A stretch of DNA of 64,000 nt from a virus (IMGVR_UViG_3300050821_003228:33818-97817), one strand, 5' to 3'; numbered from the stretch's first letter, positions 12,974 to 17,363 are shown. A program made the numbers and translations. Notes: generated by a model from the sequence alone, not told the origin.

Positions 12974-13288
12974 TTGAAAGTAAAATTTGAACCGGCACCT
13001 AATAAAGTCCTTGTACGTGTGGCCGATCCTGTAACTATTACGAAAAACGGAATACATGTTCCAGATTCGGCCCAGATGAGGCCAATGGAGGGCGTCATAG
13101 TTAAAATCGGGCCAAATAGTGATACAGTGGATAAACTGACTAAGGGTGTTGTTCATGTCGAACCTCTTTGGAAAGAGAAGGATCACGTTCTATTCGGTAA
13201 GTATGACGGTATTGAAATCAGGATAGATGAAGAGGATTTCCTTCTTTTAAATCATGATCAGATTTTAGGTAAAAGGACAGGCAATTAG
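12974..13288 (+). CDS. groES: Co-chaperonin GroES
   Basis: P..NKVLV...T.NGI.VPDSA....EG.IV.IGP...V.FGKY.G.EI..D.E.FL.L....ILG; GGAGG RBS. Confidence 0.9.
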   Translation: MKVKFEPAPNKVLVRVADPVTITKNGIHVPDSAQMRPMEGVIVKIGPNSDTVDKLTKGVVHVEPLWKEKDHVLFGKYDGIEIRIDEEDFLLLNHDQILGKRTGN

Positions 13289-13352
13289 TTAATTGACATA
13301 ACCTTCGGCCCTGAACCGAAAAAAGAACGTTTGATTCGTTCATTGCCTACCA
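13279..13352 (+). tRNA. tRNA-Gln(CTG), C33 variant
   Basis: AGGCAAT/ATTGCCT acceptor; GTTA/TAAC D-stem; TTCGG-ccCTGaa-CCGAA; GAACG/CGTTC T-stem; ACCA. Confidence 0.7.
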
Positions 13353-13353
13353 C

Positions 13354-13429
13354 GGTGCGGTAGTTTAACTGTTAAAATGCTTTCCTGTCACGAAAGACGA
13401 TGCGGGTTAGAATCCCGTCGGCACCGCCA
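13354..13429 (+). tRNA. tRNA-Asp(GTC)
   Basis: CTTTC-ctGTCac-GAAAG; GCCA end. Confidence 0.9.
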
Positions 13430-13437
13430 TAATTTAG

Positions 13438-13466
13438 TTGACAAAATGGTTTAAAAATAGTAAGAT
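13438..13466 (+). promoter_or_regulatory. Sigma70-type promoter of the Ro60 operon
   Basis: TTGACA-17 nt-TAAGAT; predicted TSS about 13473, the start of Y-like element 1. Confidence 0.7.
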
Positions 13467-13472
13467 TGATCT

Positions 13473-13537
13473 TGACGTGGTGAAGAGTAGAGTTACTTCT
13501 CGATTAGAAAAAACACTCTACTCGTTTGTTCCCGTCA
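13473..13537 (+). ncRNA. Y-RNA-like element 1 (5' leader of the Ro60 gene)
   Basis: TGACG-TGGTG-AA-GAGTAGAG-T-TACTTC-loop-CTCTACTC-GTTTGTTCC-CGTCA; scaffold shared with three downstream copies. Confidence 0.7.
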
Positions 13538-13558
13538 TTTAATTTTCTCGGAGGAGAT

Positions 13559-14947
13559 ATGTCGTCAGTCAATACAGCTACAAAGACAGCAAAATATACG
13601 CATGAAGGCGCGAAGGCGTCTAATATTACGAAGAAACAAGAGCTTCGCCGTAGTGTTACAGCTTGTATGCTTTGGGAGAACACCTTCTATGAAGATGGAA
13701 AGGCGATTGCTGACCGTATCAAGGAATTAGTTCATCAGCTTCCCGGCCAATTTGTTTCAGAATTGGCAATTGAAGCGCGTGAGAAGATGAAACTTCGTCA
13801 CGTTCCGCTGTTCCTAGTTCGTGAATTGGCCCGTCATCCTAAGAAGGCTGAACGACAGTTTGTATCAGATACATTGGCCCGAGTAATTCAACGTCCTGAT
13901 GAATTGACTGAGTATATTGCAATTTATTGGAAAGACGGTAAAGAACCGTTGTCTGCTCAATCCAAACTTGGATTAGCAAAAGCGTTTCTGAAGTTTAACG
14001 AATATAGCTTTGCTAAGTACACCCGTGATGGCGCTGTGAAGCTTCGTGACGCATTGTTCTTATCCCACGCAAAGCCGGGCACGAAGGAACAAGAGAAACT
14101 GTTCAAGAAGATCGTAGATAACACTCTTGTTACTCCTGATACTTGGGAAGTCGCACTTTCAGGTGGGGCCGATAAGAAAGAGACGTTTACTCGATTGCTG
14201 AAAGAGGGCAAGCTTGGTGCATTGGCTCTATTGCGTAATCTACGTAACATGAGTGAAGCCGGGGTATCAACCGAGTTAGTTACAGAGTCATTAGAGAATT
14301 TGGATGTCATTCGCGTACTGCCGTTTAGATTTATTTCTGCCGCGAAGTATGCTCCACAACTTGAATCAGTTCTAGAGAAGACAATGTTTAAAGCGTTGGA
14401 AAGTCATCCTGAATTGCCGGGCAAAACTGTAATGATTGTTGATGTCTCTGGCTCAATGGGCGGCAATGTTTCTGGTAAGTCAGAAATTGGACGAGTTGAT
14501 GCTGCTGCATCTTTAGCAATTCTTCTTCGTGAAATTTGTGAAGATTTTTCAATTTATGCAACAGCGGGTAATGATTATAGTCGTATTCATAAAACGGCAT
14601 TGATTCCTTCACGTCATGGTTTTGCACTGAAAGATTCAATTTTGAAGTCCAAAAATGAATTGGGTGGTGGGGGAATATTTTTGAAACAAGTTATGGATTA
14701 TGTTTATAACTTGGAAAAAAGCAATGATGTCGCTCGTATCATAGTAATTACTGATGAACAAGATTGTGATACTGATCCGGCTAAATCGCCGTCAAAAGCA
14801 AATACGTTTGGTGCTAATAATTATCTGATAAATATAGCTAATGAGAAAAATGGCATTGGCTATGATAAATGGGTTCATATTGATGGTTTTTCTGAAGCAG
14901 TAATAGATTACATTCAAGCCTTTGAAGATCAAGGCGATGAAGATTAA
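13559..14947 (+). CDS. rsr: Ro60/Rsr-like TROVE domain RNA-binding protein with vWA domain
   Basis: L.E..FYE.G, IQRPDELTE, F.EY..AKY, TWE..LS, ALLRNLRN, LPFRF..A, vWA DVSGSM and ITDEQ motifs; GGAGGA RBS before ATG 13559. Confidence 0.92.
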   Translation: MSSVNTATKTAKYTHEGAKASNITKKQELRRSVTACMLWENTFYEDGKAIADRIKELVHQLPGQFVSELAIEAREKMKLRHVPLFLVRELARHPKKAERQFVSDTLARVIQRPDELTEYIAIYWKDGKEPLSAQSKLGLAKAFLKFNEYSFAKYTRDGAVKLRDALFLSHAKPGTKEQEKLFKKIVDNTLVTPDTWEVALSGGADKKETFTRLLKEGKLGALALLRNLRNMSEAGVSTELVTESLENLDVIRVLPFRFISAAKYAPQLESVLEKTMFKALESHPELPGKTVMIVDVSGSMGGNVSGKSEIGRVDAAASLAILLREICEDFSIYATAGNDYSRIHKTALIPSRHGFALKDSILKSKNELGGGGIFLKQVMDYVYNLEKSNDVARIIVITDEQDCDTDPAKSPSKANTFGANNYLINIANEKNGIGYDKWVHIDGFSEAVIDYIQAFEDQGDED

Positions 14948-14996
14948 AACGTATGAAGCGGATTAACCGCTGATTTCAAGTTACCGCTTCGCAAGT

Positions 14997-15086
14997 TTGC
15001 GTGGTGATAGGTTGTAGTTACTTCTTACTGAAAAAAAGGAAGTTGGGTGAAATCCCCGACATACCTGCAATCGCATGTTCCCGCAA
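14997..15086 (+). ncRNA. Y-RNA-like element 2
   Basis: TTGCG-TGGTG-ATA-GGTTGTAG-T-TACTTC...CTGCAATC-GCATGTTCC-CGCAA; internal T-arm-like GTTGGG-TGAAATC-CCCGAC. Confidence 0.75.
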
Positions 15087-15161
15087 TTAATTTAGAGTGT
15101 AGACGCACGATAAAATGTTAAGGTTTTACGGTAGTCCTTGAAATAAACCGTCTAAGTTTAT

Positions 15162-15271
15162 TTGTGATGGCGTAGAATGCAGATACTTCTCTTACTTAAA
15201 GAGACTGTGTGGTTCGATTCCATAAGTAAGGATGGTTCCTAGTCATTTCTGTAATCGCTTGTTCCTCACAA
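15162..15271 (+). ncRNA. Y-RNA-like element 3 (tRNA-mimic domain, YrlA-like)
   Basis: TTGTGA-TGGCG-TAG-AATGCAGA-TACTTC...TCTGTAATC-GCTTGTTCC-TCACAA; contains TGTGG-TTCGATT-CCATA T-arm. Confidence 0.75.
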
Positions 15272-15319
15272 TTATTTGTGTTATAATCACTATAGTAAAT
15301 TCAATTAAAGGATAACAAA

Positions 15320-16120
15320 TTGAGCAAAGTATTGGATGCTGCTACAAAGCTTGTAACTAAAGAGGAAGCTGAAACTGAAAAATTATTGAGTGAAGCGGCA
15401 TTGCGTCGTTTTCGTCTTGAATCGGAGAGAAAGAATGGCCCGAAAGAAGATGAACTGATTCTTGCCCGTCGTCAGGCTGAAGTTGAAAAAATTAAGAATG
15501 AGTCTCAGAAGGCCCACTTTGAAGCGGCCTGTGCGGAATTGATTTTCAATAACGCAAAACGTGAAGAAGATAAGATTCTGACTGGCGACCGTTATAACAA
15601 AGTTTATCGCTTTGTTCATGAAGTTTGTCATGAATCTGTCGCTGACTGTATGATGATTCTTTCTCGTTGGTCGCGTCTTGAGCCGGAATGTGCGATGGAA
15701 ATCGTATTCTGTTCGCCCGGTGGAAGCATTATTGACGGTTTCGCTCTTTTCGATTTTATCCAAGATTTGAAAGCAAAGGGCCATAAGGTCACTACAAAAT
15801 CAATCGGTTATGCTGCAAGTATGGCAGGTGTATTGTTACAGGCCGGAAGTGATCGAGTGATGGGCCGTGAATCGTGGCTTTTGATTCATGAAGCTTCATT
15901 CTTTGCGATGGGTAAAATCGGCGCGGTTGATGATACGGTTGAATGGATCAAAAGGATGTGTGATCGTATTGTAGACATTTTCGCTGAACGTGCATCCGAG
16001 AAAACTGGAAAATCAGTAAAGGCAATTCGGGCAACAATTAAAAAGAATTGGCTTCGTAAAGATTGGTGGCTTTCTGCTGACGAGGCGCTAGAGTACGGTT
16101 TTTGTGATCGTATTAGTTAG
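15320..16120 (+). CDS. ClpP-family serine protease with N-terminal coiled coil
   Basis: SPGGS..DG, GYAASMA (Ser), LIHE (His), DWWLSA.EALEYG.CDRI (Asp). Confidence 0.85.
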   Translation: MSKVLDAATKLVTKEEAETEKLLSEAALRRFRLESERKNGPKEDELILARRQAEVEKIKNESQKAHFEAACAELIFNNAKREEDKILTGDRYNKVYRFVHEVCHESVADCMMILSRWSRLEPECAMEIVFCSPGGSIIDGFALFDFIQDLKAKGHKVTTKSIGYAASMAGVLLQAGSDRVMGRESWLLIHEASFFAMGKIGAVDDTVEWIKRMCDRIVDIFAERASEKTGKSVKAIRATIKKNWLRKDWWLSADEALEYGFCDRIS

Positions 16121-16128
16121 GAGAGAAT

Positions 16129-16338
16129 ATGTCAGTTAATGAAGCAATAATGTTTATACATCCGCTAGATTTTGTAAGAATGCTGAATCATCGTGATGGT
16201 CCGATTGATATTATATTTCGGAAATTACACGGTCTTCAGGTGAATGAAGTTAATGGTGTAATATATTATCAAACGGTTGAAGTGCCAGAAACGCTTCAAG
16301 ATGCAGAACCGGCCAACTGTTGGCCGTATAAATTTTAA
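16129..16338 (+). CDS. Hypothetical protein
   Basis: AGGAG RBS plus ATG. Confidence 0.6.
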   Translation: MSVNEAIMFIHPLDFVRMLNHRDGPIDIIFRKLHGLQVNEVNGVIYYQTVEVPETLQDAEPANCWPYKF

Positions 16339-16341
16339 AGT

Positions 16342-16437
16342 TTGTAGTGGTGATTGATAGAGATACTTCAAGGTGAAAGTTGACTAATACTCAACGTGCT
16401 GTCGAAAGCACAAGCCTCTGTCGCTTGTTCCCTACAA
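16342..16437 (+). ncRNA. Y-RNA-like element 4
   Basis: TTGTAG-TGGTG-ATT-GATAGAG-A-TACTTC...CTCTGTC-GCTTGTTCC-CTACAA; two internal hairpins. Confidence 0.75.
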
Positions 16438-16446
16438 TTAAGTTTT

Positions 16447-16521
16447 GCCCGTATCGTCTAAAGATAAGGCCCACGCCCGATTAGCGTGAGATGATCGGTT
16501 TAATTCCGACTACGGGTACCA
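16447..16521 (+). tRNA. tRNA-Ile(GAT), C33 variant
   Basis: GCCCGTA/TACGGGT acceptor; CACGC-ccGATta-GCGTG; ACCA. Confidence 0.8.
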
Positions 16522-16523
16522 AT

Positions 16524-16598
16524 GCTCGGCTAGTAGAGTGGCTATAACACTTCTCCTACAAAGAAGAGAGCAAGGTTCGATTCCTTGGCTGAGTACCA
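16524..16598 (+). tRNA. tRNA-Val(TAC), C33 variant
   Basis: GCTCGGC/GCTGAGT acceptor; CTTCT-ccTACaa-AGAAG; TTCGA T-loop; ACCA. Confidence 0.85.
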
Positions 16599-16606
16599 TT
16601 TTTATT

Positions 16607-16926
16607 GAGGCAATAACTCGGCACCTGACTGAATAAGGATTGCCAGTCCTCAAAGTATGGGATAGCTAACCGAGAGGTTACTATTCTAGTTGTTGCGTAA
16701 TCGCTACATAAAGGTCTAAATAGTGGCTCTAGATCGAGAGCCATGACGTAAGGACACGACAAATCGTCTATTATACATAGAGATGGCTGTATCGTGCTGT
16801 GAGTAACCATACTCACCAGACATTAACTGTTAGAGTAATTACCTAACAGGTCTGTGACCGAATAATGAGGCGTTTACTGCGAACTTATGGGTATTCTCAA
16901 ATCCCATGATGCTGAGTTATTGCCTC
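16607..16926 (+). ncRNA. Large (about 320 nt) structured ncRNA of unknown class
   Basis: 17-bp closing helix GAGGCAATAACTCGGCA/TGCTGAGTTATTGCCTC and at least 7 internal hairpins; lies between two tRNAs with no credible sense ORF. Confidence 0.7.
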
Positions 16927-16929
16927 TAT

Positions 16930-17005
16930 ACCGGGATCGTTCAACATCCGAGGACGGTTGCCTTTGAAGCAATTTATCTAGGTTGGAATCCTAGTTCCGG
17001 TGCCA
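16930..17005 (+). tRNA. tRNA-Gln(TTG)
   Basis: ACCGGGA/TTCCGGT acceptor; GTTGC-ctTTGaa-GCAAT; GCCA. Confidence 0.85.
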
Positions 17006-17042
17006 TTTTTCACAAGGCATTGTTTAAAAGTGCGACGGGAGC

Positions 17043-17072
17043 GCGGCTCGGATTAATTTCCGGGCCGTTTTT
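17043..17072 (+). terminator. Rho-independent terminator ending array 1
   Basis: GCGGCTCGGA/TCCGGGCCGT hairpin followed by a T-run. Confidence 0.75.
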
Positions 17073-17084
17073 ATTGGAGTAATT

Positions 17085-17363
17085 ATGAAGTGTGGAAACT
17101 GTTATCAAGAACAGCCGTGTAAATGTATTGTGAACACTCCAATTCATGAGCACCAAAAAATTAAATCTAGAACGAATGGACAAGAATATGAAATTATGTT
17201 TGGTCCTCAACCTGGAAATTTAGTTCCGGCTAACCCATTTGCCTCAAAACTTCAAAGTCGATTTGCTCATGCTAATCCTGATAAGTTTGGTGGCAAAAAG
17301 GGATTAGAACATTGGGATAAGGTTACTAACTACTCTAGTTTACCTGAAAAGAAGGAAGGGTAA
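17085..17363 (+). CDS. Hypothetical protein
   Basis: GGAG RBS; Cys-rich N-terminus. Confidence 0.55.
   Translation: MKCGNCYQEQPCKCIVNTPIHEHQKIKSRTNGQEYEIMFGPQPGNLVPANPFASKLQSRFAHANPDKFGGKKGLEHWDKVTNYSSLPEKKEG

What the first reader, a model, noticed from the sequence alone, without database searches (positions are those of the whole stretch)
13473..16437. Ro60/TROVE gene with a family of four modular Y-RNA-like RNAs: conserved scaffold, different cargo domains
Seen: four elements (13473-13537, 14997-15086, 15162-15271, 16342-16437) share the architecture stem1-TGGYG-N2-3-stem2-TACTTC-[variable]-stem2'-GYWTGTTCC-stem1'. Stem1 differs in each copy yet always pairs (TGACG/CGTCA, TTGCG/CGCAA, TTGTGA/TCACAA, TTGTAG/CTACAA), and stem2 also covaries, while the internal-loop motifs stay nearly invariant. 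That pattern is typical of a protein-binding RNA helix. The cargo differs: a short A-rich loop (1), a T-arm-like hairpin (2), a TTCGA T-arm tRNA-mimic (3) and two hairpins (4). Established: bacterial Rsr binds Y RNAs through a terminal helix with a GNCGA-like 5' motif, and YrlA RNAs mimic tRNA and tether Rsr to effectors such as PNPase. Inference: one phage Ro60 ring is loaded with alternative adaptor RNAs that route it to different partners or substrates. No RtcB is present in this window, unlike typical bacterial rsr-yrl-rtcB loci.
Basis: partly seen in the sequence, partly recalled or inferred. Interest (0 to 1): 0.85.

Follow-up and report, generated by a model that had tools for sequence, protein, structure and literature searches.

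The report
Phage Ro60 with four Y RNAs
A 98-kb soil phage encodes a Ro60 ring protein flanked by four small RNA genes that share one conserved Ro60-type "handle" but carry different inner parts; this is a real, widespread but unannotated branch of the known Ro60/Y-RNA system, not a new kind of system.

Summary
Exactly four elements in the complete 97.8-kb phage genome share the architecture stem1 / UGGYG-N-AG / stem2 / UACUUC / variable part / stem2' / G-YUUGUUCC / stem1'. All four lie on the strand of a TROVE+vWA gene whose predicted fold matches every solved Ro60 structure.

- **Spread:** a covariance model built from 18 short relatives finds the three untrained window copies. It finds about 150 elements beside TROVE genes in about 59 phage, metagenome and MAG loci, always on the TROVE strand.
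- **Specificity:** it finds nothing convincing in 833 kb of other viral DNA.
- **Structure:** both helices covary strongly (92-93% paired against 61-62% in shuffles).
- **Relation to known Y RNAs:** the handle is a variant of the published Rsr-binding motif GNCGAAN0-1G, and UAC matches YrlA's conserved YUAY. Tests of Rfam's YrlA model on the window, on its whole genome and on 27 related loci reached the gathering score nowhere.
- **The four RNAs:** Y3 is a cut-down YrlA (T arm only). Y1 belongs to a common short class. Y2's inner hairpin is identical in a relative whose Ro60 is 64% identical. Y4 has no orthologue found.

Arrays of 2-6 such RNAs are common, so four is not exceptional. That different inner parts recruit different partners is untested. 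The genome has no RtcB. This scan has reported similar Ro60/RNA arrays on other DNA.

The parts
13438..13466 (+). Sigma-70-like promoter (TTGACA, 17-nt spacer, TAAGAT). It would start transcription about at the first base of Y1.
   Evidence: Consensus scan, 10 of 12 matches. This is a consensus match only; no transcript start was mapped.
13473..13537 (+). Y1: 65-nt short-form Y-like RNA. It consists of the handle plus a small hairpin and an A-rich loop, and ends 21 nt before the Ro60 start codon.
   Evidence: R1 score 77.6 bits. Fold z-score -2.9. Orthologue at L183:1597-1663 has an identical 21-nt loop. 76 of 151 family members are short forms, and 41 of those carry a GAAAAUAC-like loop motif.
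13559..14947 (+). Ro60 orthologue (TROVE HEAT-repeat ring plus vWA domain with MIDAS motif DVSGSM), 462 aa from the ATG that follows the GGAGGAG ribosome-binding site.
   Evidence: Pfam TROVE E 1.4e-14. phmmer against PDB 9KOP/9L5Y: E 5e-25 over residues 9-456. AF2 model pLDDT 83; Foldseek TM 0.65-0.71 to phiLo, human, Xenopus and Deinococcus Ro60.
14997..15086 (+). Y2: 90-nt Y-like RNA. Its cargo is a pyrimidine/purine hairpin plus a 6-bp hairpin with loop UGAAAUC (15042-15060).
   Evidence: R1 45.4 bits, not in the training set. Orthologue L148:2152-2238 shares 30 identical cargo bases while stem2 differs by compensatory changes. L169:2507 has a related hairpin.
15162..15271 (+). Y3: 110-nt reduced YrlA-type RNA. 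It has a T arm (15208-15224, loop UUCGAUU) and a mini-hairpin GGA-UGGU-UCC, but no D arm and no acceptor-like hairpin.
   Evidence: R1 49.2 bits. The positional orthologue L148:2255-2392 has the same stem1 and a full T arm, acceptor-like hairpin and D arm. L001:1529-1629 shares the reduced form, with compensatory changes in the T stem and the mini-hairpin.
16342..16437 (+). Y4: 96-nt Y-like RNA. Its cargo is two hairpins: 16379-16395 (loop CUAAUAC) and 16396-16411.
   Evidence: R1 40.9 bits. Fold z-score -2.1. Metatranscriptome contigs from two studies cover 16361-16613 and 16380-16580 at 100% identity. No orthologue was found; the loop CUAAUAC recurs in L001:5327.
13279..13429 (+). tRNA-Gln and tRNA-Asp directly upstream of the Y1 promoter. 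The locus lies inside the phage's tRNA gene cluster.
   Evidence: ARAGORN and Rfam.
16447..16598 (+). Two tRNAs beginning 9 nt after Y4. The first (16447-16518) was found by Rfam only; the second is tRNA-Val.
   Evidence: Rfam tRNA 34.4 and 48.1 bits; ARAGORN.

Best explanation
The four elements are paralogous Y RNAs, the small noncoding partners of the phage's own Ro60 protein.

Shown here:
- They share a two-helix handle: stem1, a GG:CC pair, an internal loop UGGYG-N-AG opposite G-YUUGUUCC, then stem2.
- This handle is the phage-clade version of the published Ro60/Rsr-binding module.
- It is conserved by structure and found essentially only in genomes that encode this Ro60 clade, nearly always within a few kb of the gene and on its strand.

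Inferred from established Ro60 biology (Stein 2005 as cited in PMC4201824; bioRxiv 10.1101/312249; PMC12135203):
- The handle docks on the outer surface of the Ro60 ring.
- The inner part projects away from the ring as an effector or gating module.

Inferred from gene order: the RNAs are made from the same + strand transcription as the surrounding tRNAs and the Ro60 mRNA, and are cut out by host tRNA/RNA-processing enzymes.

The genome has no RtcB, Rnl2-type ligase, CCA-adding enzyme or RNase P RNA, so any effector must come from the host. The best precedent is PNPase, which forms Ro60-Y RNA-PNPase complexes in Deinococcus and Salmonella and with Thermus phage phiLo Ro60.

Y3 presents a pared-down tRNA elbow. 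Y1, Y2 and Y4 present other small hairpins. Whether these select different partners is open.
For: - **Protein:** it is a Ro60 orthologue.
- **Copy number:** exactly four copies, all on the Ro60 strand, within 2.9 kb.
- **TROVE-first route:** the motif was found beside TROVE genes in IMG/VR relatives and in Caulobacter, Brevundimonas and Xanthomonas phages without being selected for.
- **Motif-first route:** among 122 raw pattern matches in IMG/VR, 10 of the 13 with a flanking stem lie under 700 nt from a TROVE gene on the same strand, against 3 of 109 without a stem.
- **Model hits near TROVE:** R1 gives 63 hits in 28 sources (the window plus 27 TROVE-bearing loci) and 88 hits in 42 metagenome TROVE loci, all on the TROVE strand.
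- **Negative control:** in 833 kb of unrelated viral DNA, the only strong hits (L119) lie in a complete genome with a TROVE gene 4 kb away.
- **Whole bacterial genomes:** in four 3-5 Mb MAGs, all hits are at the TROVE locus except two orphan loci in one genome that also has TROVE.
- **Covariation:** 93.4% of cells paired against 60.9% in shuffles and about 45-55% when slid, with 14 of 16 pairs showing compensatory change. With 70 sequences the figures are 91.8% against 62.1%. The first G of GG changes to A together with C to U in 5 sequences.
- **Homology to published motifs:** GGYG(A/U)AG matches GNCGAAN0-1G, and UAC matches the conserved YUAY/UA of YrlA.
- **Link to YrlA:** tRNA-like members of the same family give sub-threshold YrlA hits of 30-42 bits.
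- **Cargo under constraint:** Y2's 30-nt cargo is identical in a relative with 64% Ro60 identity.
Against: - No binding data exist for this Ro60 or these RNAs.
- Rfam's YrlA and Y_RNA models give no hit in the window even at E<=10. YrlA gives none in the genome.
- None of the four copies has the exact CGAA core that matters in phiLo Yrl2 (3- to 4-fold loss on mutation, PMC12135203). Y1 has UGAA and the other three depart at one more position.
- Y1, at 65 nt, is shorter than characterised Y RNAs (80-130 nt, PMC4201824).
- Part of the invariance of the motifs is circular, because many homologues were collected with a pattern or a model that contains them. The TROVE-first set is the unbiased part.
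Confidence: 0.8

Rival explanations
1. The four RNAs are redundant isoforms. All serve one role, such as gating the Ro60 cavity or tethering one host nuclease like PNPase, and the differences in the inner parts are tolerated drift rather than partner codes.
For: - Copy number and cargo type vary freely between related loci: 1-6 copies, any type next to the gene.
- The Y3 lineage has lost its D arm and acceptor-like hairpin relative to its orthologue in L148.
- In phiLo, both Yrl1 and Yrl2 bind the same host PNPase (PMC12135203).
Against: - Y2's cargo is 100% identical over 30 nt while the surrounding stem2 and the Ro60 gene have diverged.
- The short class keeps a GAAAAUAC-like loop motif across distant loci.
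- T and D arms are conserved in 29 members.

Together these show that distinct cargo classes are each under selection.
Confidence: 0.3
2. Y1 acts mainly in cis, as the 5' leader of the Ro60 mRNA. Free Ro60 would bind its own leader and set its own level, so Y1 would not be a separate stable Y RNA.
For: - A promoter-like site would place the transcript start at the first base of Y1.
- Y1 ends 21 nt before the start codon, with no terminator called in between.
- In many loci a family member lies 20-80 nt upstream of the TROVE start.
Against: - The element immediately upstream of the gene can be of any class, including full tRNA-like forms.
- In the close relative L183, about 185 nt are inserted between the Y1 orthologue and the gene.
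- In Salmonella, Y RNAs are cut out of an operon transcript (10.1101/312249), so adjacency is expected for ordinary Y RNAs.

This rival is not exclusive of the main explanation.
Confidence: 0.2
3. The shared handle is not a Ro60 site. It would be a processing or termination signal of phage tRNA operons, or the site of another protein, that merely travels with TROVE genes.
For: - The elements sit inside tRNA clusters.
- One Terriglobales MAG has two orphan arrays far from its TROVE gene.
Against: - The window has 19 or more tRNAs but only four handles, all within 1.5 kb of the Ro60 gene.
- Other tRNA-rich viral loci without TROVE lack the handle.
- The handle resembles the experimentally defined Ro60-binding motif.
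- The genome with the orphan arrays still encodes the Ro60.
Confidence: 0.05

Closest known systems
Bacterial YrlA / YrlB Y RNAs bound by Rsr (Salmonella, Mycobacterium smegmatis; Rfam RF02553; Chen et al. 2014, PMC4201824; structure 10.1101/312249)
   Same: - Encoded next to Ro60 on the same strand.
- The terminal stem carries a GNCGAA-like 5' motif opposite a CUUG-containing 3' strand, followed by a second helix and a conserved (Y)UA(Y) before the inner domain.
- Two-module design.
- One tRNA-like member (Y3, like YrlA) alongside non-tRNA members (Y1, Y2, Y4, like YrlB).
   Different: - The handle consensus is UGGYG-N-AG / G-YUUGUUCC with an extra closing stem, so the GGCGA/UCGCC helix is reduced to GG:CC plus mismatches.
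- The full motif UACUUC is nearly invariant.
- No window copy reaches, or even registers against, the Rfam YrlA model.
- Y3 lacks the D arm and the acceptor-like hairpin.
- There is no rtcB neighbour.
Thermus phage phiLo Ro60 with Yrl1 and Yrl2 (PMC12135203; PDB 9KOP, 9L5Y)
   Same: - A phage-encoded Ro60, and the closest solved structure by both sequence and fold.
- Several Y-like RNAs lie just beside the gene.
- The phage has no effector gene of its own; the host PNPase is the demonstrated partner in vitro.
   Different: - Only about 24% protein identity.
- phiLo has two RNAs, defined by a CGAA motif.
- Here there are four, embedded in a tRNA cluster, with a different handle consensus. One of them has a T arm.
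Metazoan Y RNAs (for example human Y1, Y3, Y4, Y5) - from general knowledge and the introduction of PMC4201824
   Same: - Up to four paralogous RNAs per genome.
- They share a conserved Ro60-binding bulged helix formed by the 5' and 3' ends (GGUCCGA opposite a UUGAC-type strand).
- They differ in the inner loop that binds other proteins.
   Different: - Transcribed by polymerase III with a U tail that binds La.
- No tRNA-like domain.
- Different handle letters.
Deinococcus radiodurans Yrn1 in the Rsr-Y RNA-PNPase (RYPER) machine (cited in PMC4201824 and 10.1101/312249)
   Same: The Y RNA's inner module, including a T-like stem-loop, tethers Ro60 to an exoribonuclease. This is the best mechanistic precedent for Y3.
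   Different: - Cellular and stress-induced.
- A single major RNA.
- The partner is known, whereas none is known here.

Membership tests
Ro60 / Rsr (TROVE) protein | TROVE HEAT-repeat domain detectable by profile | tested here: met
   Pfam PF05731, E 1.4e-14, 54.5 bits against a cut-off of 23. More than 8000 homologue clusters, many named 60 kDa SS-A/Ro ribonucleoprotein.
Ro60 / Rsr (TROVE) protein | C-terminal vWA domain with MIDAS motif (DxSxS) | tested here: met
   DVSGSM at residues 295-300 is aligned to the same motif in phiLo Ro60 and invariant in 32 homologues. The Pfam VWA_2 score of 23.8 bits is just under its cut-off of 27. Fold hits to vWA domains.
Ro60 / Rsr (TROVE) protein | Overall Ro60 fold | tested here: met
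   AF2 model pLDDT 83.4. The top 13 Foldseek hits are all Ro60 structures (9KOP, 9L5Y, 9NEP, 2I91, 9NEN, 1YVP, 9NFA, 9NF8, 2NVO, 1YVR), TM 0.65-0.71.
Y RNA (Ro60-associated ncRNA, broad sense) | Encoded close to Ro60 on the same strand | tested here: met
   All four lie within 1.5 kb of the gene on the + strand. The same holds for about 150 relatives.
Y RNA (Ro60-associated ncRNA, broad sense) | 5' and 3' ends form a long stem carrying a conserved Ro60-binding motif (GNCGAAN0-1G / GGUCCGA type) | tested here: met
   The stem is supported by covariation. The consensus GGYG(A/U)AG fits the published motif with one or two departures per copy.
Y RNA (Ro60-associated ncRNA, broad sense) | Length 80-130 nt | tested here: inconclusive
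   Y2, Y3 and Y4 are 90, 110 and 96 nt between the stem ends. Y1 is 65 nt. True ends were not mapped.
Y RNA (Ro60-associated ncRNA, broad sense) | Physically bound by Ro60 | not testable with these tools
   This needs RIP or EMSA. No RNA-protein docking tool is offered.
Y RNA (Ro60-associated ncRNA, broad sense) | Expressed as a discrete small RNA | tested here: inconclusive
   Contigs from two soil metatranscriptome studies cover the 3' three-quarters of Y4 together with the tRNAs, and parts of the Ro60 gene. Contigs cannot show ends or exclude DNA carry-over.
YrlA (Rfam RF02553) | Score at or above the family's gathering threshold (69 bits) | tested here: not met
   No YrlA hit in the window at E<=10 or in the genome at E<=0.001. 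tRNA-like relatives in other phages score 30-42 bits.
YrlA (Rfam RF02553) | tRNA-like domain with T arm, acceptor-like hairpin and D arm | tested here: not met
   Only Y3 has a T arm, and none of the four has a D arm. Y3's orthologue in L148 has all three parts, so Y3 is a reduced descendant.
YrlA (Rfam RF02553) | Conserved YUAY at the start of the inner domain | tested here: met
   UUAC or AUAC in all four copies. U-A-C is invariant or nearly so in 70 aligned members. The feature is described in PMC4201824 and 10.1101/312249.

The most novel reading that the evidence does not exclude
Phage Ro60 acts as one hub protein programmed by a natural library of interchangeable adaptor RNAs. Each cargo class (short GAAAAUAC loop, UGAAA hairpin, tRNA elbow, anticodon-loop-like hairpins) would dock a different host RNA enzyme or tRNA-targeting defence nuclease. 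The four-RNA set of this phage would then redirect or block several host RNA-decay and tRNA-cleavage activities at once while its own tRNAs are expressed.
Probability: 0.15. Interest if true: 0.75.

Novelty: new variant of a known kind. Interest (0 to 1): 0.45.

Why it matters
Ro60 and Y RNAs are conserved from bacteria to humans, yet what the variable half of a Y RNA does is known for only a few cases.

This locus belongs to a large family that Rfam's models did not detect at threshold in the loci tested. I found about 150 members in about 59 loci, spanning phages of Caulobacter, Brevundimonas, Xanthomonas, crAss-like phages and soil bacteria. In this family one conserved Ro60 handle carries many different small modules, often several per genome.

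That gives a ready-made comparative panel for asking which module binds what, and cultured phages such as CcrColossus and Xanthomonas MET23-P3 are available to test it in.

It also has a practical use. Some of these RNAs are currently annotated as tRNAs or left blank, and gene callers start the Ro60 ORF inside Y1.

For this particular window the result is an expected extension of published work (Chen 2014; phiLo 2025) rather than a surprise.

Tried and rejected
- **Rfam:** gathering-score searches of the window and of related loci found only tRNAs, tmRNAs and one RNase P RNA. An E<=10 search of 13200-17100 gave no Y RNA or YrlA hit.
- **Nucleotide search:** megablast of the locus against 50,697 phage records gave no match.
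- **Raw pattern scan:** the IMG/VR scan is dominated by chance matches (109 of 122 lack the flanking stem), so it is useful only after filtering.
- **Likely false positive:** a 27.6-bit R1 hit in L050 lies inside a portal gene.
- **Laid RNA-library contigs:** no contig covers Y1, Y2 or Y3. This says nothing either way, because depth is only 2-5.
- **Y3 fold:** RNAalifold on Y3 and L001:1529 could not decide between a small hairpin after UAC and a longer acceptor-like pairing (CUUACUU with AAGUAAG; CUUGC with GCAAG in L001).
- No orthologue of Y4 was found in what I could fetch.
- **Papers not held:** the Sim and Wolin reviews and Burroughs and Aravind 2016. The supplements of Chen 2014 that list the phage YrlA coordinates are also not held.
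- **Readings rejected:**
  - Degenerate tRNA pseudogenes: the handle is not tRNA-like and it covaries.
  - Generic dispersed repeats: the elements are conserved across distant phages and only occur with TROVE.
Full report
**What is there.** The window is bases 33818-97817 of a complete 97,817-bp virus record with direct terminal repeats.

Between 13.2 and 16.6 kb the + strand carries, in order:
- tRNA-Gln and tRNA-Asp
- a promoter-like site
- Y1
- a 462-aa gene
- Y2 and Y3
- a ClpP-like gene
- a 69-aa ORF
- Y4
- two tRNAs

The four elements align over their ends and differ in the middle. The joint motif occurs four times on the forward strand of the whole genome and nowhere else, and the reversed-pattern control gives zero. 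Each folds with its two ends paired, with z-scores from -1.5 to -2.9.

**The protein.**
- Pfam finds TROVE (E 1.4e-14) and a borderline vWA domain.
- phmmer aligns residues 9-456 to Thermus phage phiLo Ro60 (PDB 9KOP/9L5Y, E 5e-25), including the MIDAS motif DVSGSM.
- An AlphaFold model built from 32 homologues (pLDDT 83) has all solved Ro60 structures as its 13 best Foldseek hits: phage, human, Xenopus and Deinococcus, TM 0.65-0.71.
- More than 8000 homologue clusters exist, and several sources name them Ro ribonucleoprotein.

It is a Ro60 orthologue.

**Is the RNA motif linked to Ro60?** I tested this from two directions.

*Starting from the protein.* Relatives in IMG/VR and in GenBank phages (Caulobacter CcrColossus, Brevundimonas, Xanthomonas, a crAss-like phage, Microcystis) were fetched with their flanks. 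The same handle, with a flanking stem, lies beside the gene on its strand in most of them.

*Starting from the RNA.* A pattern scan of IMG/VR returned 118 loci, mostly chance matches. Of the 13 matches with a flanking stem of 5 bp or more, 10 lie under 700 nt from a TROVE gene on the same strand, against 3 of 109 without such a stem.

I then built a covariance model, R1, from Y1 and 17 short relatives. Its results:

| Search set | Result |
|---|---|
| Window and whole genome | The untrained Y3, Y2 and Y4 at 49, 45 and 41 bits; nothing else |
| The window plus 27 TROVE-bearing loci (28 sources) | 63 hits, all on the TROVE strand |
| 42 metagenome TROVE loci | 88 hits, all on the TROVE strand |
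| 833 kb of viral DNA pre-selected to contain the three motifs by chance | Only L119 scores well |

L119's complete 56-kb genome has a TROVE gene 4 kb downstream, with two more elements directly upstream of it.

In four whole MAGs of 3-5 Mb, the hits are at the TROVE locus. The exception is two orphan arrays in one Terriglobales genome that also encodes the protein.

**Structure.**
- On the MAFFT alignment of 18 short forms, 93.4% of cells pair, against 60.9% in shuffles and 43-56% when the partner is slid. 14 of 16 pairs show compensatory change.
- Stem1 was a selection criterion, but stem2 was not, and all nine of its pairs covary.
- On 70 model-aligned members, 52 of them untrained, 91.8% pair against 62.1%. 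The first G of the GG:CC pair switches to A together with C to U in five sequences.
- The consensus handle is: stem1, U, GG, Y, G, A/U, A, G, stem2, then U/A-UACUUC on the 5' side; and stem2', G, Y, U, U, G, U, U, CC, stem1' on the 3' side.

**Relation to known Y RNAs.** Chen et al. 2014 defined GNCGAAN0-1G as the likely Rsr-binding motif of YrlA and YrlB, and a conserved YUAY at the start of the inner domain. They reported YrlA near Ro60 in 254 bacteria and 22 phages. CcrColossus is named among those phages in PMC12135203.

The handle here reads GGYG(A/U)AG, and the inner domain begins with (U/A)UAC. The conserved UA is the kink-forming pair in the YrlA crystal structure.

The Rfam YrlA consensus ends with ACUUGUCGCC, and here the 3' strand is G-YUUGUUCC. 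The architecture is therefore the same, with the GGCGA/UCGCC helix reduced to GG:CC and an extra closing stem.

Rfam's YrlA model nevertheless finds nothing in the window. It scores only 30-42 bits (threshold 69) on the tRNA-like members in Xanthomonas and Caulobacter phages. None of the 27 related loci searched at gathering score gave a YrlA hit either.

**The four cargoes.** Among 151 collected members, 76 are short, 29 have T and D arms in the YrlA order, 11 have a T loop only, and 35 are other long forms. Loci carry 1-6 members each, and CcrColossus has about eight when sub-threshold YrlA hits are counted.

- **Y1** is a typical short form. Its orthologue in L183 keeps the loop unchanged.
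- **Y2** has an orthologue at the same position in L148. Its 30-nt cargo is identical although stem2 has changed by compensation and Ro60 is only 64% identical. A related UGAAA-loop hairpin occurs in L169.
- **Y3** shares its stem1 letters with L148:2255, which has a full T arm, acceptor-like hairpin and D arm. Y3 and L001:1529 have lost the last two and keep a 3-bp hairpin with loop UGGU, so Y3 is a reduced YrlA.
- **Y4** has no orthologue in the data I could reach. Its first hairpin loop, CUAAUAC, recurs in L001:5327.

**How it probably works.** By homology, the handle binds the Ro60 ring and the cargo projects outward as the effector or gating module. Both points are established for other Y RNAs and are inferred here.

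The genome lacks RtcB, an Rnl2-type ligase, a CCA-adding enzyme and RNase P RNA, so partners and processing enzymes must be host ones. PNPase is the precedent.

The promoter-like site at 13438-13466 would start transcription at Y1. Y4 is followed after 9 nt by a tRNA, which fits release of the RNAs by tRNA-processing enzymes.

Metatranscriptome contigs from two studies cover parts of the Ro60 gene, and Y4 from base 16361 onward together with the tRNAs. The neighbouring RNA at 16606 onward is deep (depth about 91), so the phage is active in that sample. Contigs cannot show ends, however.

**Novelty.** Already published:
- phage Ro60 with Y-like RNAs (PMC4201824; PMC12135203)
- the two-module concept (10.1101/312249)
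- several paralogous Y RNAs per genome (vertebrates; YrlA/YrlB)

I did not find in Rfam, or in the papers I could read, this handle consensus, the non-tRNA cargo classes, or the commonness of arrays beside this Ro60 clade.

Earlier notes of this same scan report similar Ro60/RNA arrays on other phage DNA, so the scan has seen this kind before. I rate it a new variant of a known kind, of moderate interest.

Noticed in passing
window 16447-16518: A tRNA-like gene found by Rfam (34.4 bits, above the threshold of 29) but not called by ARAGORN. It lies 9 nt after Y4 and 5 nt before tRNA-Val.
   Followed up: no
window 13526-13558: The public gene call for the Ro60 protein (473 aa, P0001) starts at a TTG inside Y1. 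The ATG at 13559, behind GGAGGAG, is the more plausible start and leaves Y1 intact.
   Followed up: partly
L001:1093-1368: The closest IMG/VR relative (Ro60 61% identical) carries a bacterial type A RNase P RNA (126.8 bits) inside its tRNA array, next to its Y RNAs. The window's own genome has none.
   Followed up: partly
L019:3173-3240 (Caulobacter phage CcrColossus, NC_019406.1 109217-109284): The annotated 'tRNA-Gln' lies inside a 175-nt Y-like element (handle plus T arm, hairpin and D arm), so it is probably a misannotated YrlA-type RNA. About eight Y-like elements fill the 1.3 kb upstream of this phage's Ro60 gene.
   Followed up: partly
G007:C44:1041-1700 (L192) and G007:C24:111867-111934 (L193): A Terriglobales MAG has, besides its TROVE locus, two orphan sets of the same handle-bearing RNAs in ordinary chromosomal surroundings (ChrB-like and malectin-domain genes). 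The handle is therefore not phage-specific, and Y genes can be unlinked from Ro60.
   Followed up: partly
family-wide (alignments A3 and A4): In 134 of 149 members a hairpin follows UAC directly. 63 of these have 7-nt loops with consensus C-U-N-N-N-A-A (for example CUGUUAA, CUGCUAA), which looks like an anticodon loop. The published model treats this arm as a long variable arm. The window's own copies have loops of 5, 9, 5 and 8 nt there.
   Followed up: partly
window 15281-15290: An extended -10-like TGTTATAAT lies just after Y3 and 30 nt before the ClpP-like gene (15320-16120). That gene scores below the cut-offs of both the ClpP and the head-maturation-protease models.
   Followed up: no
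L024:7793-8048 and L021:1365-1669: A permuted tmRNA in a Brevundimonas jumbo phage and a standard tmRNA in crAss-like phage cr106_1. Both lie within a few kb of their Ro60 genes, among tRNAs.
   Followed up: no
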